Virus record (IMG/VR): IMGVR_UViG_3300045988_001655
Location: 1-5,731 of that record
Source of the DNA: a virus
Length of the DNA: 5,731 nucleotides
Strand: one strand, 5' to 3'
The stretch's first letter is position 1. Each line of letters begins with the position of its first letter. The position numbers and the translations under genes were made by a program. This document shows positions 291 through 5,731 of the stretch, in pieces. The notes below the pieces were generated by a model. It was given only the letters and a program-made list of their open reading frames with translations. It did no database searches and was not told the origin of the DNA.

Positions 291-475
291 GCAAATAATC
301 AAACAGCACAGAAGTGTTCCTCACAAATTCATTTTTACAAAAATAACTTTAAGAAAGAGGTGAACCGCCCTGACTCTCCAAGAAATCAAAACGCTGTTTG
401 AAAACATCCAAAAAATCCTTGCCATGCTGGACAAAATCTACCATGCAGTAACAGGGAACGAACCGGAGGCTTAAC

Positions 476-703
476 ATGGAGAAAAAACTATGGAATGTAA
501 GAGACCAGACCGACGAGAACCTTATACAGGAGTTAACGAAAATCCACAGGGGAATCGACGGCGTGTACAGTATGATCAGAAAGGCCGCAACAATCGAAGA
601 CGCAAAATATTACGTTGACCTTGTGTTTCGCAAGAAGGCGGCAGCAAACGAAATTGAGATGGAAATACTCAGGAGGGACATCAACCATGGCAAAGAGGAG
701 TAA
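476..703 (+). CDS. Small hypothetical protein of 75 aa. No recognised family.
   Basis: ORF track. GGAGG (465-469) lies 6 nt upstream of ATG 476. Its 3' end overlaps the next gene by 17 nt. Confidence 0.55.
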   Translation: MEKKLWNVRDQTDENLIQELTKIHRGIDGVYSMIRKAATIEDAKYYVDLVFRKKAAANEIEMEILRRDINHGKEE

Positions 704-806
704 AGTCCGCAAATCCAAAGACGCAAAAATCTACAACAAGACAGCACGAAAAACCAAGGCCATTAACCTTGGCAGCGGCGCAATGAGAGGAGGAATCCGT
801 CTGTGA
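687..806 (+). CDS. Putative J/VP8-like small basic DNA-binding (DNA packaging) peptide, 39 aa: MAKRSKVRKSKDAKIYNKTARKTKAINLGSGAMRGGIRL.
   Basis: The internal ATG at 687 of ORF 615..806 is preceded by AGGAGGGA (671-678) with 8-nt spacing. About one-third of the residues are K/R. Microviridae encode a small basic J or ORF8 protein of about 20-40 aa that enters the capsid with the DNA. Confidence 0.5.
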   Translation: MAKRSKVRKSKDAKIYNKTARKTKAINLGSGAMRGGIRL

Positions 807-829
807 GCTCAGTATACGCAGGAGTAACA

Positions 830-901
830 ATGGCATGCCTCGCAGCAGGCTTTGTCTTCATCGTCTTCGCAATCGACATTATCAAGGAATGGTTCAAATA
901 A
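830..901 (+). CDS. Unannotated 23-aa hydrophobic mini-ORF, MACLAAGFVFIVFAIDIIKEWFK. It is a candidate single-pass membrane peptide.
   Basis: ATG 830 has AGGAG (820-824) 5 nt upstream. TAA 899-901 overlaps the SD of the next gene. The ORF fills the 105-bp gap between two genes. The hydrophobic core AAGFVFIVFAIDII is about one TM helix long. Confidence 0.3.
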   Translation: MACLAAGFVFIVFAIDIIKEWFK

Positions 902-911
902 GGAGAAAAAC

Positions 912-1148
912 ATGAACGTATACGGAATTTTCGATAACTGCGTGATGGGTTATATCGCCATCTTCACCGAACGTGACGACAAAGTGGCCGAACGTAATTT
1001 CAAAATCGCACTGACCGACGAACAAAACATCATGAGCAAGACTCCAAGCGACTATCGGCTGGAGCGACTGGCAAAATTCGACGAGAAAACGGGCCTGTTT
1101 GAAAACGAAAAGGAGAATATCTTCGATGGCGTATCGATCAGTAAGTAA
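912..1148 (+). CDS. Small hypothetical protein of 78 aa. No recognised family.
   Basis: ORF track 852..1148. The true start is probably ATG 912, which has a strong SD AAGGAG (901-906) with 5-nt spacing. The 3' end overlaps the next gene. Confidence 0.55.
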   Translation: MNVYGIFDNCVMGYIAIFTERDDKVAERNFKIALTDEQNIMSKTPSDYRLERLAKFDEKTGLFENEKENIFDGVSISK

Positions 1149-1605
1149 TTTCAGAGAGACTGCAACAGCAAAGCCCACTGAGGCCGGAGAAACCATCAGA
1201 CGGACGTATCTTTGGGAAATCAACGAAAAGGGCGAAAAGGTGCTGACGCTTGACCAGACCATTGACCAGCAGGCAGAAATCGACAGCTACCTAGAAGAGA
1301 CCAAACTGGAAAACATCCTCAGGCGGGCATCCATTGATCCTGACATTGCAGCTAGACTGGTGCCGAACATGGGTGACGGGATCCAAGACGCAACCGGGAT
1401 GCCGGAGAATCTGATGCAGCTCCAGAACATCATGCTGCGGGCCGAGCAAATCTGGGATGAAATCCCAAAGGAAATCAAGCTCAAGTTTGACAATGACGTC
1501 GATAAATTCGTGGCAAGCTTCGGAACTATCGACTGGGCAAAAAATCTGGGCATTTATCAGGAAGAGCTGCCTGAAGAGCCTAAAAAGGAGGAAGCCGCTG
1601 AATGA
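1126..1605 (+). CDS. Acidic 159-aa protein immediately upstream of the capsid gene and translationally coupled to it. Putative internal scaffolding protein (VP3-like).
   Basis: ORF track 1099..1605, where 1099 is a TTG. ATG 1126 has AAGGAG (1111-1116) 9 nt upstream. The protein is rich in E/D, consistent with gokushovirus VP3 scaffolds. The stop TGA 1603-1605 overlaps the VP1 ATG (ATGA). Assignment is by size, charge and position only. Confidence 0.4.
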   Translation: MAYRSVSNFRETATAKPTEAGETIRRTYLWEINEKGEKVLTLDQTIDQQAEIDSYLEETKLENILRRASIDPDIAARLVPNMGDGIQDATGMPENLMQLQNIMLRAEQIWDEIPKEIKLKFDNDVDKFVASFGTIDWAKNLGIYQEELPEEPKKEEAAE

Positions 1606-3269
1606 ACAGAAATAAAGACGCAGGATTCAACCAGGTGCCGCGACTGGACATCACGCGAAGCCGCTTTAAGAGGCGGCAGGACGTAAAGCTCACGCTCAAT
1701 GCTGGACAGCTCATTCCGTTCTATGTGGACGAAGTGCTACCGGGCGACACCTTCAGCATCGACCAAGCCGCAATTATCCGTATGACAACGCCTATCTTCC
1801 CAGTTATGGACAACTGCCACATGGATATCTACTACTTCAACGTACCGTGCCGTATCATCTGGGAACATTTCAAACGGTTCATGGGCGAAAACGACTCCGG
1901 GCCGTGGGCACAGACTCAGGAGTATACCATTCCGCAGGTCAAAGTAACTGGCTCAACCGACAAGCCGGCACCGTACGAGGGAAGCATCATGGACTACATG
2001 GGCATTCCTACCAAGGTGAGCAAAGGAACTGACAGTACCTTCAGCGTTAACGCACTGCCGTTCAGAGCATACGCCATGATTTGGCAAGAGTGGTTCCGCG
2101 ACCAGAACGTGGACAATCCGGCAATCAACAAAACCACAGACGAAACAGTCAACTACACTGACGATGAGACAAAGGGTATGGACGCAACAAATCCTGACCT
2201 TGAATACATCCTACAAAACGCATACACCGGCGGCAGACCGCTGCCGGTGAATAAGTACCACGACTACTTCACATCGGCTTTACCTTCCCCTCAGAAAGCG
2301 GGAGAACCTGTAAAAATCCCTCTGGGAAATACCGCAAAAATATACGGATACTACAACAGCAACCCAGGCCATAAAGCACCAATCGACGGAGACGAATTAA
2401 CCATATACAACGGAAACCGTTCGGAAATAAACAAAGCGGATAGCATCGTTGGGCAACCCTCAAACTTAACGTACGAACCACTTCAACTGAGAGCAGATCT
2501 GTCAAGTGCAACATCTACAACCATCAATCAGCTGAGACAGGCTTTCCAGGTACAAAAGTACTACGAGCAGTTAGCACGCGGTGGCAGCCGCTACCGCGAG
2601 ATGATTTACTCGCTGTTTCATACCAAAATCAGCGATAAGACGGTACAAATTCCTGAATACCTGGGCGGCACACGCATTACTATCAACATGAGTCAGGTTA
2701 TCCAGACCAGCGGCACGACCACCGATAGTCCGCAGGGCAACGCAGCAGCAATAAGTGTTACGCCGTACAACGGGAACATGTTCACCAAGAGCTTCGAAGA
2801 GCATGGCTATGTTATCGGCGTGTGCTGCATCCGGCATGACCATACCTACCAGCAGGGCTTGGAACGCATGTGGAGCCGCAAAACAAATCTGGATTTTTAC
2901 TATCCGGTCTTTGCAAACCTGGGAGAGCAGGCCATCCTGAAAAAGGAGCTGTATCTCACTGGTACGGACACCGACGAACAGGCCTTTGGTTATCAGGAAG
3001 CATGGGCAGAGTACCGAATGAAGCCAAACCGCATCAGCGGCAAGTTCCGGTCGAATGCAGAAGGAACTCTGGACAGCTGGCACTACGGCGACAACTACGA
3101 AAAGGCTCCGAGCCTGAGCCAGGCATGGATGAAAGAGGGAGATTCCGAGATTCAGAGAACTCTGGCCAAAGACAACGAACCTCAGTTTATCATGGATACC
3201 GTCATAGACAATACGTCTGTAAGACCGATGCCAATGTACAGCATTCCGGGTCTCGTAGACCATCACTAA
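1602..3269 (+). CDS. VP1: Major capsid protein (Microviridae F / gokushovirus VP1), 555 aa.
   Basis: The N-terminal region has the FNQVPRLD...[16 protein letters not shown] motif typical of microvirus capsid proteins. The size is right. The central region (about residues 190-330) is hydrophilic and variable, like the gokushovirus insertion loop. AAGGAGG lies 9 nt upstream of ATG. Confidence 0.9.
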
Positions 3270-3280
3270 GAAAGGGGGAA

Positions 3281-3309
3281 GCCCGGGGCAAAACCCCGGG
3301 CTATTTTAT
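3281..3309 (+). terminator. Rho-independent terminator/attenuator between VP1 and VP2: GCCCGGGG-caaaa-CCCCGGGC followed by tATTTTATT.
   Basis: Perfect 8-bp all-GC stem (3281-3288 and 3294-3301), 5-nt loop, then a T-rich tract. It lies immediately after the VP1 stop. Confidence 0.7.
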
Positions 3310-3310
3310 T

Positions 3311-4177
3311 ATGGCATTAGCAGCAATCGGCAGCGCACTGCTCGGAATCGGCAAACAACTACTCCCAACAATCGCCGGAGGACTCATAAACAAATTCCTG
3401 GGTGGAAACCTAATGGAAAGCAATGGAGGGAGCAGTCAGCACAACGAAAGCTCAAGCCAGGGAGGCGGCTACAGCAGCGCCGCCAGCGGCGTAAACCGAG
3501 AACAGAACCTGCAAGACTGGAACAGTATGCTAGGGGCAATTCAAAACAATATGCAAAGCCAGCAGAAGTTTAACCGTCGGAGCATGTTCGAGCAAATGGG
3601 CTATAACACCATGGCGGCAATCACTCAGGGTGTATATAACCAGATAAGCAACAACGCAGCGATGGCCTACAACAGCGCAGAAGCAGCCAAAAACAGAGCT
3701 TGGCAAGAGCAAATGAGCAATACAGCTTATCAGCGAGCTGTAGAAGACATGAAAAAAGCTGGCATCAACCCTATCTTAGCATACCAACAAGGAGGAGCAA
3801 GCACGCCAGGAGGCGCACAAGCCACTATCAGTGGGGCAAGCATGGGACTCGCAAGCAGCAGTGCAGCGAACGCAAGCGCTCTCGGAGTAAGCCAGAATCA
3901 CAACAACACATGGAGCAAAAGCGAAAGCAACTGGTACAACGCGGCACAAGCGGTTGGAGACGCTACAAGCTGGTCTCACACAAGCGCAGACAAAGCGTTT
4001 AATGCATTCAAGGACGTCTTCAATGACCTCAGCAACCTAAACGGTGGCAACGGCGGCGTTGCAAACGCCAGCCAAGGTGCCGGGAGAAAACCGAAGAAAG
4101 ATGAAATCGAATACAGACCGGGAAAAGACTTCATCGGAAGCAAAAACGTCGAATTTTGGAAAGGAAAACTTAAATAA
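3311..4177 (+). CDS. VP2: DNA pilot / minor capsid protein (microvirus H / gokushovirus VP2), 288 aa.
   Basis: Hydrophobic N-terminus [25 protein letters not shown]. It has the conserved pilot-protein block [22 protein letters not shown] and a Q/N/S/G-rich low-complexity body. The ORF-track frame 2870..4177 overlaps VP1, so the first ATG after the VP1 stop (3311) is taken as the start. Confidence 0.8.
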
Positions 4178-5197
4178 ATGGGATGCAACAAACCATTAAT
4201 CCGGTTTTATGTACCTCATGATAGAGAGGCGAGTGGGCGAGTGTACTCACTCGCCTCTTTTAACAAGATTCATGAAACCAAAATACAGTATGAAGACCTG
4301 ATGTATCGCAAAGATGTAATGATGATACCATGCGGACAATGCACAGGATGCAAACTACGCAAGCGCAAAGACTGGGCAACACGAATGGAGCTGGAAGCAT
4401 ACAGCCACGACAAGGAAAGCATCTGGTTTATCACGTTAACCTATGATGACGACCACGTACCAACACAGGACACAGAAACAGGGGAAATCTTCAAGGGAGG
4501 CGTAAACGTATGGAGAGACGCCTCAGAGCGTCCCAGAACGGTGCAAACCTTAAGCGTAGAGGATGTCCAGTTATTCATGAAAAGGCTTAGAAAGGCCGTC
4601 AGCGGGCCTCTCAGATACTTCTTGGCCGGAGAGTATGGAGACAACACCTCAAGACCACACTATCACATGATACTATACGGATGGTATCCGGACAACTTAA
4701 AGCCAATTCACAGGCTGTCAAGGTTTGGACACTACACGAGTGATAAACTGGTCAAAGTCTGGGGACAAGGGACGGTTGACATAGCCCAGGCAACGCCGGA
4801 AACGTATAACTACGTAGCTGGATATGTGACCAAGAAGCTGTACGGAAACGACAAAGACAAGTACAAGAAAATGGGACTCATACCGCCATTCTGCATAATG
4901 AGCCGAAAGCCAGGACTCGGAGACGAATGGTTCCAAAAGAACCAAGAAAGGCTATGGCAACTTGGATACATCCAGCTGACAAACGGCAAAAGAGAAGCCA
5001 TTCCAGAATATTATTGGCGAAAGCTGGAAGCTGAAAATCCTGAAAAGGCGTGGAGAATCAAGCAGTATCGACAAGAAAAAGCCATTGCATCCCTAATCGA
5101 AAGAAACATGGAAACTGACAAACGGTATGCCGAACAACTGGCCGATAAAGAAGCAATAATGAAGAAGAAGATGTCCAAAGCAAAGGGCGTTTTTTAG
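4178..5197 (+). CDS. VP4: Rolling-circle replication initiation protein (microvirus A / gokushovirus VP4), 339 aa.
   Basis: HUH-endonuclease motifs are present: motif I FITLTY, motif II HYHMILYG, motif III YNYVAGYVTKK (two catalytic tyrosines, as in the phiX174 A protein). There is an N-terminal CGQCTGCK cysteine cluster. The start abuts the VP2 stop. Confidence 0.9.
   Translation: MGCNKPLIRFYVPHDREASGRVYSLASFNKIHETKIQYEDLMYRKDVMMIPCGQCTGCKLRKRKDWATRMELEAYSHDKESIWFITLTYDDDHVPTQDTETGEIFKGGVNVWRDASERPRTVQTLSVEDVQLFMKRLRKAVSGPLRYFLAGEYGDNTSRPHYHMILYGWYPDNLKPIHRLSRFGHYTSDKLVKVWGQGTVDIAQATPETYNYVAGYVTKKLYGNDKDKYKKMGLIPPFCIMSRKPGLGDEWFQKNQERLWQLGYIQLTNGKREAIPEYYWRKLEAENPEKAWRIKQYRQEKAIASLIERNMETDKRYAEQLADKEAIMKKKMSKAKGVF
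4225..4258. other. Perfect 11-bp inverted repeat inside the 5' end of the rep gene: AGAGGCGAGTG-(12 nt)-CACTCGCCTCT. GGCGAGTG is tandemly duplicated on the left arm.
   Basis: Arms at 4225-4235 and 4248-4258 are exact reverse complements. The loop ggcgagtgtact overlaps a second GGCGAGTG copy (4236-4243), so alternative pairing is possible. Confidence 0.7.
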
Positions 5198-5206
5198 CTC
5201 TGGTGT

Positions 5207-5263
5207 CACTCAGCCAAGTAACTATCAAGTACATATACTTGGCTGAGTGTTTTTTAGTTTTTT
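5207..5263 (+). terminator. Rho-independent terminator after rep: 14-bp perfect stem CACTCAGCCAAGTA / TACTTGGCTGAGTG with a 15-nt loop, followed by TTTTTTagTTTTTT.
   Basis: Arms at 5207-5220 and 5236-5249 are exact reverse complements. T-runs at 5250-5255 and 5258-5263. Confidence 0.75.
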
Positions 5264-5267
5264 ATCA

Positions 5268-5308
5268 GCGCACGCGCACGCGCACGTAATCGCGCACGTA
5301 CACGTGCG
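5268..5308. repeat. GC-rich alternating purine-pyrimidine island. (GCGCAC)x3 is tandem (5268-5285), with a fourth copy at 5292-5297, and a palindrome CGCACGT-ac-ACGTGCG at 5293-5308.
   Basis: Read directly. Strict Pu/Py alternation over 5268-5288 (21 bp) and 5291-5308 (18 bp). The island is flanked by T-runs on both sides. Confidence 0.8.
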
Positions 5309-5331
5309 ATTTTTATTATATTATTATTTAC

Positions 5332-5352
5332 TTGTTGTAGTAGTAGTAGTAG
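5332..5352. repeat. Trinucleotide microsatellite (TTG)2(TAG)5.
   Basis: ttgttgtagtagtagtagtag read directly. TAG units at 5338-5352. Confidence 0.85.
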
Positions 5353-5356
5353 GGAG

Positions 5357-5532
5357 TGTTGAAATGTTGAAAACTATGAATATCTATCCTTGGAACGATA
5401 TTTTGTAGTCAATTTTGATGTTGATAACTTTGTGGAAAACTTGTTGAATTGTTGAAAGTGTAGCAATATGCACAAAACCATTTGTGCAACTTTTTGTGGA
5501 AAACCTGTTGAAAGTGTTGAAAGTGTTGAAAA
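5357..5532 (+). promoter_or_regulatory. Iteron array of about 10 same-orientation copies of TGTTGAAA(R) in three clusters: 5357-5373, 5419-5458 and 5495-5532. It includes two TGTGGAAAA variants (5431-5439 and 5495-5503), a 21-bp direct repeat (5428-5448 and 5492-5512, 19/21 identical), and a perfect tandem TGTTGAAAG-TGTTGAAAG-TGTTGAAAA at 5506-5532.
   Basis: Copies read directly at 5357, 5365, 5419 (TGTTGATAA), 5431, 5442 (TGTTGAAT), 5450, 5495, 5506, 5515 and 5524. Confidence 0.8.
5469..5488. repeat. Palindrome TGCACAAA-acca-TTTGTGCA centred between the two 21-bp iteron repeat units.
   Basis: 8-bp arms are exact reverse complements with a 4-nt spacer. Confidence 0.8.
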
Positions 5533-5542
5533 TGTAATTAGA

Positions 5543-5611
5543 GGCAGCTCGGCAGCTGGCCGAAAGGTTACGTCATGCTCTTCGTACGGCGCACCGCGCC
5601 TAGCGCATGAC
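5543..5611. other. GC-rich structured block: direct repeat GGCAGCT-c-GGCAGCT (5543-5557), then nested inverted repeats GTCATGC (5572-5578) / GCATGAC (5605-5611) enclosing GGCGC-acc-GCGCC (5588-5600).
   Basis: Read directly. This is the only GC-rich segment of the AT-rich intergenic region apart from the GCGCAC island. Confidence 0.6.
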
Positions 5612-5632: not shown

Positions 5633-5731
5633 ATTTTTTTTTGAAAACCTTGAATTTTTTTAGAATTATAGTACAATAGAATCACAGAAAGGAAAGGTGA
5701 ATACCATGTTACACTGCTACGAAGTACGAAA
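5633..5731. repeat. Terminal direct repeat, right copy (wrap-around of the circular genome). It contains a second copy of the gene-1 promoter and the first 26 nt of gene 1 (5706..5731).
   Basis: Exact match to 1-99. ATG at 5706 corresponds to ATG at 74. Confidence 0.9.

What the first reader, a model, noticed from the sequence alone, without database searches (positions are those of the whole stretch)
830..901. Unannotated 23-aa hydrophobic mini-ORF with its own SD: candidate membrane or lysis peptide
MACLAAGFVFIVFAIDIIKEWFK exactly fills the gap between the J-like gene and the next ORF. It has an AGGAG at proper spacing, and its stop overlaps the downstream SD. It consists of one predicted transmembrane helix and a short amphipathic tail. 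Gokushovirus-type microviruses have no recognised homolog of the phiX174 lysis protein E, so their lysis mechanism is unresolved. A tiny TM peptide encoded here could be the missing single-gene lysis or membrane-perturbing factor. Alternatively it could act as a chaperone-like factor for VP2 insertion. It falls below typical ORF-calling thresholds.
Basis: inference. Interest (0 to 1): 0.55.

Follow-up and report, generated by a model that had tools for sequence, protein, structure and literature searches.

The report
Accessory membrane micro-protein gene in gokushovirus
A tiny gene in a gut gokushovirus-type phage genome really does encode a conserved 32-residue membrane-spanning peptide, but four in ten of the phage's closest relatives lack it, so it is an optional membrane factor (possibly helping lysis), not the family's missing lysis gene.

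Summary
The window is a complete circular gokushovirus-type genome (5632 nt plus a 99-nt terminal repeat). The reported ORF exists, but comparison with 70 related loci moves its start. The conserved gene begins at GTG 803, which overlaps the TGA stop of the J/VP8-like gene (GTGA), and ends at 901, giving 32 aa rather than 23.

42 of 71 loci carry it, as two divergent allelic types: A (32-33 aa, the window's type) and B (38-42 aa). Both share an invariant I-x-K-x-W juxtamembrane motif.

- **Coding evidence:** it is under purifying selection specific to its own reading frame (pN/pS 0.33 and 0.43; other frames about 1, mostly interrupted by stops).
- **Structure:** AlphaFold2 models one helix, and the 32-aa form has a 24-residue uncharged span.
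- **Distribution:** the family occurs only in this clade and matches no Pfam, PHROG or NCBIfam family. NCBI nr already lists 32-aa forms as "hypothetical protein".
- **Dispensability:** 29 of 71 relatives lack it cleanly, with VP5 starting at the same xTGA junction. Presence changes at least 11 times on the VP1 tree. Genomes without it carry no substitute hydrophobic ORF and no peptidase.

It is therefore a real accessory single-pass membrane micro-protein. A lysis-promoting or membrane-perturbing role is plausible but untested. It cannot be the general missing gokushovirus lysis factor.

The parts
687..806 (+). J/VP8-like basic DNA-binding protein gene (39 aa). Its TGA stop (804-806) overlaps the start of the mini-ORF.
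   Evidence: phrog_10695, E = 6e-9. 90-100% identical in all 70 related loci.
788..793 (+). AGGAGG Shine-Dalgarno sequence, inside the J-like coding sequence (R-G-G codons), 9 nt before GTG 803.
   Evidence: Sequence. An SD-like GAGG to AGGAGGT sits 8-12 nt before the xTGA start in all 42 loci. In genomes without the mini-ORF the same site precedes the VP5 start codon, which sits at that junction.
803..901 (+). Mini-ORF, conserved form: 32 aa, MSSVYAGVTMACLAAGFVFIVFAIDIIKEWFK, from GTG (GTGA overlap with the J stop) to TAA.
   Evidence: the start is conserved in 42 of 42 loci, and pN/pS is 0.33 (p = 2e-6) in this frame only.
803..874 (+). Residues 1-24: an uncharged hydrophobic stretch, the predicted transmembrane helix.
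   Evidence: Best 19-residue Wimley-White octanol sum is -6.2 kcal/mol, and maximum Kyte-Doolittle (19-residue window) is 2.41. AlphaFold2 gives a helix over residues 3-31 with pLDDT 91. No Pro in 41 of 41 homologues.
820..832 (+).
   Evidence: Sequence. Only 5 of 25 type-A copies combine a start codon at codon 10 with an SD sequence.
872..898 (+). Most constrained part: the juxtamembrane motif I24-D-I-I-K28-E-W30-F-K. I26, K28 and W30 are invariant across types A and B.
   Evidence: Alignments A1 and A3. pN/pS is 0.16 for codons 24-32.
900..905 (+). AAGGAG Shine-Dalgarno sequence for VP5, overlapping the mini-ORF stop codon (TAAGGAG).
   Evidence: Sequence. A TAAGGAG-type junction is conserved in type-A loci. 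In type B the stop overlaps the VP5 ATG (ATGA) instead.
912..1148 (+). VP5 gene (78 aa), the downstream neighbour. In relatives without the mini-ORF it starts directly at the xTGA overlap with the J stop.
   Evidence: Pfam Phage_ORF5, 6e-17. Junction sequences of the 29 loci without the ORF.

Best explanation
The feature is a real but dispensable phage gene.

**Shown**
- A 32-codon ORF (803-901) starts at a GTG that overlaps the stop codon of the J/VP8-like gene.
- It lies in the same + strand gene string as J, VP5, VP3 and VP1.
- It is kept open and under purifying selection at the amino-acid level.
- It exists as two divergent allelic types plus a null allele, and these are shuffled among closely related gut gokushoviruses.

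**Inferred**
- Ribosomes that finish J re-initiate at the GTGA overlap, using the AGGAGG inside the J coding sequence. This would make small amounts of a single-helix peptide.
- The peptide inserts into the host cytoplasmic membrane. The short N-terminus probably faces outward, and the K/R-bearing tail sits at the cytoplasmic interface. This orientation is clearer for type B (tail net charge mostly +2 or +3) than for the window's type A (0 or +1).
- It acts in the membrane through its helix and the invariant I-x-K-x-W juxtamembrane motif.

**Most likely role**
A membrane-perturbing accessory factor that promotes or times host lysis or permeabilisation, working like a holin, a single-gene lysis protein (Sgl) or a type-I toxin peptide. 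It is not an essential lysis gene, because relatives complete their gene set without it.

**How sure**
The confidence given (0.38) is for the whole statement including the lysis-promoting role. Taken separately, I put a real translated gene at about 0.9 and a membrane-inserted helix at about 0.8.
For: **It is a real gene**
- 42 of 71 loci carry it. 40 are intact and all in-frame length variants (28, 32, 33, 38, 42 aa) are multiples of three; the only other exception is one frameshifted copy.
- Independent-pair pN/pS is 0.33 for type A (binomial p = 2e-6) and 0.43 for type B (p = 9e-5). The other two frames give 0.9-1.9 and are mostly interrupted by stops.
- Synonymous divergence (pS 0.35-0.40) is only slightly below that of the neighbouring genes (0.39-0.58), so the constraint acts on the peptide rather than on the DNA.

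**Start at 803:**

**Membrane helix**
- 24 uncharged residues, hydropathy values typical of a membrane span, and no Pro.
- AlphaFold2 gives a helix over residues 3-31, pLDDT 91.
- Charges are confined to the C-terminal tail.

**Expression context**
- Promoter-like site at 5650-5677 (repeated at 18-45), and a terminator-like hairpin only after VP1 at 3280-3302.
- Start/stop overlaps or tight SD junctions lie on both sides of the ORF.

**Accessory status**
- Clean absence in 29 of 71 loci.
- At least 11 presence/absence changes on a VP1 tree of 56 genomes.

**Consistent with a lysis-related role**
- No genome of the clade encodes an M15 peptidase or any other hydrophobic ORF apart from the VP2 N-terminus and a DNA-level conserved non-coding stretch.
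- The lysis mechanism of gokushoviruses that lack a peptidase is unresolved in the literature (PMC3394797; 10.1101/743518; PMC11499846).
- A weak GTG start coupled to an upstream gene fits a toxic product made in small amounts (inference).
- An unrelated 33-aa hydrophobic ORF occupies the same slot, with the same GTGA start, in one sister-clade genome.
Against: - No experiment of any kind exists. Translation, membrane insertion and any phenotype are all inferred.
- 41% of the closest relatives lack the gene and show no replacement, so lysis in this clade does not depend on it.
- Selection is much weaker than on the neighbouring genes (pN/pS 0.33-0.43 against 0.03-0.07).
- Type A tails are nearly neutral, so the topology is uncertain.
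- The host, and therefore the envelope type, is unknown (searches were uninformative).
- The sister-clade analogue occurs in only 1 of 6 genomes, with a decayed remnant in another. This suggests that such inserts can be short-lived.
- Nothing distinguishes a lysis-related role from other membrane roles.
Confidence: 0.38

Rival explanations
1. It is the phage's essential single-gene lysis protein. In this reading it is the functional analogue of phiX174 E or ssRNA-phage LysM, blocking a membrane step of cell-wall synthesis, and it is the missing lysis gene of gokushoviruses.
For: - Its size and architecture resemble the 37-residue LysM (PMC12506998, listed).
- No other lysis candidate exists in the genome.
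- Fast evolution and orphan status are typical of de novo lysis genes in ssRNA phages (PMC7693330, listed).
Against: - It is absent from 29 of 71 closest relatives, with no substitute hydrophobic ORF in any + strand frame and no compensating accessory gene.
- It is confined to one clade.
- The six-gene enterogokushoviruses lyse E. coli without it.
- It has no Pro-containing E-like helix and matches no Pfam family.
Confidence: 0.1
2. It is a membrane peptide with a non-lytic accessory role. Examples would be superinfection exclusion (blocking entry of the VP2 DNA-pilot of incoming phage), a host-specific adaptation, or a burst-size modulator like the non-essential hydrophobic K protein of phiX174.
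For: - Presence/absence polymorphism, and two divergent alleles reshuffled across VP1 backgrounds, are what one expects of optional fitness or competition genes.
- Among the GenBank records checked, it is present in the five human or monkey records and absent from the three pig records checked directly.
- The membrane helix is well supported.
Against: - There is no direct evidence.
- No membrane-anchored exclusion peptide is known in the Microviridae (my own knowledge).
- The human/pig split rests on 8 phylogenetically non-independent records.
Confidence: 0.25
3. The peptide has no function of its own. The insert would be a translational-coupling spacer that changes how much VP5 is made relative to J: it replaces a GTG start on the J stop with an ATG that has its own SD sequence (type A) or with an ATGA overlap (type B).
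For: - The insert always changes the VP5 start context.
- The peptide evolves 5-10 times faster than its neighbours at non-synonymous sites.
Against: - Frame-specific purifying selection (p = 2e-6 and 9e-5).
- pN/pS of 0.16 on the C-terminal motif, and invariant I26, K28 and W30 across types that are otherwise only about 38% identical.
- Hydrophobicity is maintained in every copy.
Confidence: 0.07
4. It is a chaperone-like helper for membrane insertion of the VP2 pilot protein.
For: VP2 has a hydrophobic N-terminus ([14 protein letters not shown]...), so both products would be in the membrane.
Against: - Relatives with very similar VP2 genes lack the ORF.
- No co-variation with VP2 was examined, and no precedent is known to me.
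Confidence: 0.04
5. It is a chance open frame in an intergenic spacer and is not translated.
For: A 32-codon open frame has roughly a 1 in 5 chance in random sequence (my estimate). INPHARED records do not annotate it.
Against:: it is conserved, frame-specific and selected. The other two frames carry stops.
Confidence: 0.03

Closest known systems
phiX174 lysis protein E (Bullavirinae amurin; inhibits MraY and depends on SlyD)
   Same: A small microvirus-encoded protein whose active part is one N-terminal transmembrane helix, probably made in low amounts. It is the only characterised lysis factor of a microvirus (PMC3394797).
   Different: - E is 91 aa, is overprinted in the +1 frame inside scaffold gene D, and has an essential Pro in its helix (my knowledge).
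- The peptide here is 32 aa, has its own intergenic slot, has no Pro in 41 of 41 copies, and matches no Pfam family.
- It is dispensable across relatives.
LysM / Sgl-M of ssRNA coliphage M, and other single-gene lysis proteins of ssRNA phages
   Same: Very small (37 residues) single-pass membrane peptides that evolve quickly, are orphans by sequence, and arise de novo (PMC12506998 and PMC10229422; PMC7693330).
   Different: - Sgls are essential for release of their phage and are usually embedded in other genes.
- Lysis activity and a target (MurJ for LysM) are demonstrated for them. Nothing has been demonstrated here.
- There is no sequence similarity.
phiX174 K protein
   Same: A small hydrophobic, membrane-associated, non-essential microvirus protein reported to modulate burst size (my knowledge, not checked here). 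This matches the dispensability seen here.
   Different: K is 56 aa and overlaps genes A and C. It belongs to the Bullavirinae only, and there is no homology.
Holins and type-I toxin peptides (Fst, Ldr, TisB, Hok class)
   Same: A hydrophobic helix of about 30-40 aa followed by a short charged tail. These act by permeabilising or depolarising the membrane. In the window's sub-lineage, the two in-frame starts (803 and 830) recall holin dual-start motifs.
   Different: - No adjacent endolysin in any of the 63 genomes.
- No Pfam or NCBIfam holin or toxin family match.
- No antisense-RNA context was examined.
- Holins are usually 60 aa or longer (my knowledge).
'MAG TPA: hypothetical protein [Microviridae sp.]' entries DAW91177.1, DAG79969.1, DAW89936.1 and DAN02928.1
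   Same: True homologues (59-88% identical, 32 aa, same start), so the gene family is already present in NCBI nr.
   Different: These are automatic calls with no function, no membrane annotation and no comparative analysis. The exact window sequence is not in the collection.

Membership tests
phiX174 E-type amurin | Sequence homology to the E family | tested here: not met
   No Pfam family at E <= 1 for type A, type B or the sister-clade peptide. No PHROG. No credible NCBIfam match (only one chance-level hit, E = 0.1 at 12 bits against a cut-off of 162).
phiX174 E-type amurin | Gene overprinted in an alternative frame of the scaffold gene | tested here: not met
   The ORF occupies its own 99-nt slot between J and VP5 and overlaps its neighbours by 4 nt only.
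phiX174 E-type amurin | N-terminal transmembrane helix containing an essential proline | tested here: not met
   The helix is present, but there is no Pro in any of 41 homologues.
phiX174 E-type amurin | Inhibits MraY; SlyD-dependent; septal lysis | not testable with these tools
   Needs expression and genetic suppressor experiments.
Single-gene lysis proteins (Sgl) in general | Expression alone causes host lysis | not testable with these tools
Single-gene lysis proteins (Sgl) in general | Required by the phage, so present in all close relatives or replaced by another sgl | tested here: not met
   Absent in 29 of 71 loci. No alternative hydrophobic open frame or accessory gene in the genomes that lack it.
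Single-gene lysis proteins (Sgl) in general | Small protein with a single transmembrane domain | tested here: met
   32 aa, 24 uncharged residues, AlphaFold2 helix 3-31.
Holins | At least one transmembrane domain plus a charged C-terminal tail | tested here: inconclusive
   The transmembrane domain is present. Tail net charge is mostly +2 or +3 in type B but 0 or +1 in type A, the window's type.
Holins | Genetic association with an endolysin | tested here: not met
   tblastn with the sister-clade M15 peptidase found no hit in the 63 genomes of the clade. No lytic enzyme domain was found among the window's proteins.
Holins | Match to a curated holin family | tested here: not met
   No credible Pfam or NCBIfam hit.
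Type-I toxin-like membrane peptides | A hydrophobic helix of about 20-50 aa with a polar or charged tail | tested here: met
Type-I toxin-like membrane peptides | Homology to a known toxin family, or an antisense RNA antitoxin | tested here: not met
   No Pfam or NCBIfam family and no Rfam match in the window. A novel antisense RNA was not looked for.
Protein-coding gene (as opposed to a spacer) | Open frame conserved and purifying selection specific to that frame | tested here: met
   40 of 42 intact. pN/pS 0.33 and 0.43 (p = 2e-6 and 9e-5). The other frames give about 1 and are mostly interrupted by stops.

The most novel reading that the evidence does not exclude
The peptide is a true lysis effector: a 32-38 residue protein antibiotic or membrane-lesion former that sets lysis timing in this gut gokushovirus clade. 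It would be the first lysis protein identified for any gokushovirus, possibly with a new envelope target. It would coexist with a slower core-gene lysis route that suffices in relatives without it. The two in-frame starts in the window's lineage (803 and 830) might then act like a holin/antiholin pair.
Probability: 0.2. Interest if true: 0.75.

Novelty: new member of a known kind. Interest (0 to 1): 0.42.

Why it matters
How gokushoviruses that lack a peptidase leave their host cells is an open question. They are among the most abundant ssDNA phages in the gut and the environment.

This work turns a guess into a defined, testable object:
- a 32-aa peptide, with natural type-A, type-B and null alleles;
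- an invariant I-x-K-x-W motif to mutate;
- a natural template for a precise deletion.

If the peptide is lytic or depolarising, it would be one of the smallest phage membrane effectors and a lead for finding its target. If it is not, the clean presence/absence polymorphism shows that lysis in this clade must come from the shared core genes, which narrows the search.

It is also a tidy example of modular gain and loss of a micro-gene between two start/stop overlaps in a 5.6-kb genome, and of how the choice of start codon changes the biophysical reading (15 against 24 hydrophobic residues).

Tried and rejected
1. **Origin by duplication of the VP5 5' end.** Suggested by MSxVY.G resembling MS.NVYG, and by the chimeric protein P0034. 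Local DNA alignments of the mini-ORF against the VP5 5' region score no better than shuffles. P0034 is instead a 134-nt tandem duplication in one low-coverage contig.
2. **A face of small residues (glycine-zipper-like) on the helix.** Helical-wheel clustering is 0.14-0.16, so there is no face.
3. **A substitute transmembrane peptide in genomes without the ORF.** None was found among ORFs of 20 aa or more at KD >= 2.0, or among stop-free frames at KD >= 1.6. The only hits were the VP2 N-terminus and ORFs in the non-coding region.
4. **The 27-aa 'MLNTMNFYPWNDIFWLILMLILLWITC' frame as a second membrane gene.** Rejected as probably not coding. The whole 231-nt stretch is 82-96% identical at the DNA level, the conservation continues past the stop, variability is the same inside and outside the frame, and 5 genomes including the window have in-frame stops.
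5. **A compensating accessory gene.** None was found.
6. **Host identification.** No relative of VP1 was found in 185,579 species genomes. Homologues of the sister-clade peptidase are all on microvirus-size contigs. The host remains unknown. Strong SD sequences suggest, by inference only, a host that uses SD-dependent initiation.
7. **Broadening the sample through the J gene.** The protein query was too short. A degenerate DNA pattern returned the same 62 contigs.
8. **Family, structure and RNA libraries.** No PHROG, Pfam or Rfam match and no credible NCBIfam match. A fold search was not run, because a single helix is uninformative.
9. **The NJ tree of the flanking DNA** was distorted by truncated loci. 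It was replaced by a VP1 protein tree.

Full report
**What the window is.** The 5731 bases are a complete circular genome of 5632 nt with a 99-nt terminal redundancy. All recognisable genes lie on the + strand:
- a 63-aa ORF (74-265) and a 75-aa ORF (476-703);
- a 39-aa basic J/VP8-like protein (687-806, phrog_10695);
- VP5 (912-1148, Pfam Phage_ORF5);
- the VP3 scaffold (1126-1605, Chlamy_scaf);
- the VP1 capsid protein (1602-3269, Phage_F);
- the VP2 pilot protein (3311-4177);
- the VP4 replication initiator (4178-5197).

The nearest GenBank records are human, monkey and pig faecal gokushoviruses at about 76-83% nucleotide identity. A promoter-like site lies at 5650-5677. The only terminator-like hairpins on the + strand with a strong G+C-rich stem follow VP1 (3280-3302) and lie in the non-coding stretch beyond VP4. 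The finding therefore sits inside the string that runs from J to VP1.

**Checking the observation.** The ORF at 830-901, the AGGAG 5 nt before its ATG, and the TAA stop overlapping the AAGGAG of VP5 are all present. The frame is open further upstream, however, to GTG 803. This GTG overlaps the TGA stop of the J-like gene (GTGA) and is preceded at 9 nt by an AGGAGG inside the J coding sequence. The resulting product is 32 aa: MSSVYAGVTMACLAAGFVFIVFAIDIIKEWFK.

**Relatives.** I collected 8 GenBank loci and 62 IMG/VR contigs that encode a close VP5 relative. A degenerate pattern for the J gene returned the same 62 contigs, so this is the whole clade in that collection. The distance from the J stop to the VP5 start is bimodal: 85-127 nt in 42 loci, counting the window, and about zero in 29.

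In all 42, an ORF starts at the xTG of the xTGA overlap (GTG 40, ATG 1, TTG 1). It comes in two types.
- **Type A** (32-33 aa, the window's type) ends in TAAGGAG followed by 10-13 nt and the VP5 ATG.
- **Type B** (38-42 aa) has a stop that overlaps the VP5 ATG.

Only two copies are damaged: one frameshift (L013) and one in-frame 10-codon deletion (L043).

The two types are about 38% identical. They align without difficulty and share invariant I26, K28 and W30, with nearly invariant A11, F17 and I24.

**Which start.** The window's Met10 (ATG 830) is not conserved. Codon 10 is ACG in 5 of 25 type-A copies. Only 5 of 25 combine a start codon there with an SD sequence, and type B has nothing equivalent. 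Codons 2-9 show pN/pS of 0.42. The 23-aa form would have only 15 uncharged residues, against 24 for the 32-aa form. The conserved gene is therefore 803-901. ATG 830 may add a shorter isoform in the window's sub-lineage only.

**Is it a gene?** Over all pairs, the Nei-Gojobori dN/dS ratio (Jukes-Cantor corrected) is 0.33 for type A and 0.39 for type B. The neighbouring J and VP5 genes give 0.03-0.07, with broadly similar synonymous divergence. Using only phylogenetically independent closest pairs:

| Type | Pairs | pN/pS | Observed non-synonymous fraction | Neutral expectation | Binomial p |
|---|---|---|---|---|---|
| A | 11 | 0.33 | 0.55 | 0.79 | 2e-6 |
| B | 7 | 0.43 | 0.63 | 0.80 | 9e-5 |

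The same DNA read in the other two frames gives ratios of 0.9-1.9, and most sequences then carry stops. The strongest constraint falls on the C-terminal juxtamembrane motif (codons 24-32, ratio 0.16). This rules out a chance ORF and argues against a spacer whose peptide is irrelevant.

**What the product looks like.**
- The best 19-residue Wimley-White octanol sum is -6.2 kcal/mol and the Kyte-Doolittle maximum is 2.41.
- There is no proline in 41 of 41 copies.
- Only one full-length copy has a charged residue in the first 20 positions; the shortened 28-aa L043 copy also does, because its tail motif is shifted forward.
- Charges are confined to the tail.
- AlphaFold2, run on the family alignment, gives one continuous helix over residues 3-31 with pLDDT 91.
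- The tail's net charge is mostly +2 or +3 in type B but 0 or +1 in type A. An N-out/C-in orientation is therefore a reasonable inference for type B and less certain for the window's type.

**How widespread and how well known.**
- A profile search of 5.8 billion clustered proteins found 39 clusters. All are 32-45 aa, and those with a recorded contig lie on contigs no longer than one microvirus genome. The single exception is an 11.9-kb assembly concatemer of one genome.
- An exhaustive HMMER scan of 1.84 billion representative proteins found only five clusters of the same family and one spurious hit.
- There is no Pfam or PHROG match and no credible NCBIfam match.
- The 32-aa form is already in NCBI nr as 'MAG TPA: hypothetical protein [Microviridae sp.]' (DAW91177.1 and others). 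The family is therefore not literally unannotated, but nothing has been said about it.

**Dispensability.** In the 29 loci without the ORF, VP5 starts directly at the GTGA or ATGA overlap with the J stop. The cassette is thus bounded by two start/stop overlaps and can be gained or lost without disturbing either neighbour.

On a VP1 protein tree of 56 genomes, presence/absence needs at least 11 changes, against a mean of 18.7 for shuffled tips. The three states A, B and none need at least 14. Sister genomes often differ in state, which indicates recombination or repeated loss.

Among 35 complete genomes with terminal repeats, those lacking the ORF have:
- no compensating accessory ORF cluster;
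- no hydrophobic stretch (KD >= 1.6 over 19 residues) in any stop-free + strand frame, apart from the VP2 N-terminus and the non-coding region;
- no M15 peptidase, a result that holds for all 63 genomes of the clade.

The outgroup part of the clade and most of a sister clade also lack the ORF, so absence is probably the ancestral state (inference). In that sister clade, one genome (MG945382) carries an apparently unrelated 33-aa hydrophobic ORF, MIEMASAITVICCGVAIIMMAVRMMMDKNKEDK. It sits in exactly the same slot and again starts at the GTGA. A close relative of that genome has only a 6-codon remnant.

**Literature.**
- Roux et al. 2012 state that phiX174 is the only microvirus whose lysis mechanism is known, and they propose M15 peptidases for some gokushoviruses (PMC3394797).
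- Kirchberger and Ochman note the absence of a peptidoglycan-synthesis inhibitor from most metagenomic microviruses. They describe enterogokushoviruses with a conserved six-gene arrangement that still give confluent lysis on plates (10.1101/743518).
- Lysis-associated accessory genes in other microvirus families are peptidases located between VP1 and VP4 (PMC9239249).
- I found no paper describing a small membrane peptide between VP8 and VP5.

**Interpretation.**
- *Shown:* this is a real, selected, clade-restricted accessory micro-gene that encodes a hydrophobic helix with a conserved interfacial motif.
- *Inferred:* it is translated by coupling to J at a weak GTG start, inserts into the membrane, and acts there.

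The lysis idea fits the architecture, the orphan and fast-evolving character, and the lack of any other lysis candidate. But the gene cannot be essential for lysis, and it cannot be the general gokushovirus lysis factor, because 41% of its closest relatives, and all gokushoviruses outside the clade, do without it.

I therefore favour a dispensable membrane-perturbing factor that promotes or times lysis (about 0.35-0.4). Next come a non-lytic membrane role such as superinfection exclusion or burst-size modulation like phiX174 K (about 0.25) and an essential Sgl (about 0.1). Minor rivals are a coupling spacer, a VP2 helper and a chance ORF.

It fails the tested defining features of the E family: no homology, not overprinted, and no helix proline. 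It also fails the holin criterion of association with an endolysin. It 'works like' these proteins only in the architectural sense.

**Verdict.** I class it as a new member of a known kind (small phage-encoded single-pass membrane peptides) and score interest at about 0.4. It provides a clean, cheap experimental handle on an open question. The presence/absence polymorphism lowers the odds of the exciting outcome.

Noticed in passing
window 5330-5560 (non-coding stretch after VP4): This 231-nt stretch contains repeated (T)GTTGAAA(A) motifs and a small hairpin (5469-5488). It is 82-96% identical in 59 of 63 genomes of the clade, more conserved than the coding DNA. Part of it (about 5418-5532) is the only part of the window that several distant gokushoviruses match at 85-89% (H13-H18). 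It is probably an origin or regulatory element. Within it, most relatives have an open 27-codon hydrophobic frame (MLNTMNFYPWNDIFWLILMLILLWITC), which a TAG breaks in the window. Variability is the same inside and outside that frame, so it is probably not a gene.
   Followed up: partly
L160 (MG945382.1) 987-1088; L161: In a sister clade, an apparently unrelated 33-aa hydrophobic ORF (MIEMASAITVICCGVAIIMMAVRMMMDKNKEDK) sits in the same slot between J and VP5. It starts at the GTGA overlap and ends 1 nt before the VP5 ATG. The closest relative, L161, has a 54-nt gap with only a 6-codon remnant, and four other members lack the ORF. The slot seems prone to acquiring and losing micro-ORFs.
   Followed up: partly
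L165 (ENA ERZ19243459 NODE_27452) 350-839: A tandem duplication of about 134 nt produces three ORFs in a row: an intact type-B mini-ORF; a 45-aa chimera of the first 18 residues of VP5 fused to the last 27 residues of the mini-ORF (P0034); and then a normal VP5. The join is at a G(V/Y)IT microhomology. Contig coverage is only 3.7x, so this may be a rare variant or an assembly artefact.
   Followed up: partly
window 364-475: A small open frame (..LTLQEIKTLFENIQKILAMLDKIYHAVTGNEPEA) is conserved in relatives, where it starts with GTG (for example MFALTLKEINALFNNIRKILAMLDKIYHAVEDNNKPGE in L004, L006 and L007). In the window there is no ATG, GTG or TTG before the Met at 424, so a CTG at 370 after AAGAGG, or the truncated start, would have to be used. 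The function is unknown.
   Followed up: no
window 5336-5352 and 5265-5310: A (GTA/TAG)n trinucleotide run gives a spurious poly-Val 'hydrophobic ORF' (5247-5408). It lies next to CGCGCAC/CGCACG repeats that form a terminator-like hairpin (5293-5308).
   Followed up: no
INPHARED relatives L001-L008: Among the GenBank relatives checked, the mini-ORF is present in the five human or monkey records (MG945657, PV067914, KT264788, KT264789, KT264790). It is absent from the three pig records checked directly (MG945138, MG945381, MG945423). A fourth pig record, MG945780, gave the same two-piece BLAST match as MG945138 but was not fetched. The sample is too small and not phylogenetically independent, but the pattern hints at an association with host or ecosystem.
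   Followed up: no
L159 (MG945388.1) 352-750: A sister-clade genome carries an M15_3-type peptidase gene (Pfam PF08291), and more than 1000 related sequences were found. The best matches lie on contigs no longer than a microvirus genome, which shows how common this putative lysis enzyme is in gut microviruses. The window's whole clade lacks it.
   Followed up: partly
window 3270-3311: VP2 (ATG 3311) has no Shine-Dalgarno sequence within 15 nt. It starts 9 nt after the terminator-like hairpin that follows VP1 (3280-3302). Every other gene has a strong AGGAG-type SD. This suggests that VP2 expression is attenuated or regulated differently.
   Followed up: no
L164 (ENA ERZ1305919 NODE_2963): An 11,966-nt contig is a roughly 2.2-fold head-to-tail concatemer of one gokushovirus genome. 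It is an assembly or rolling-circle artefact, not a prophage.
   Followed up: yes
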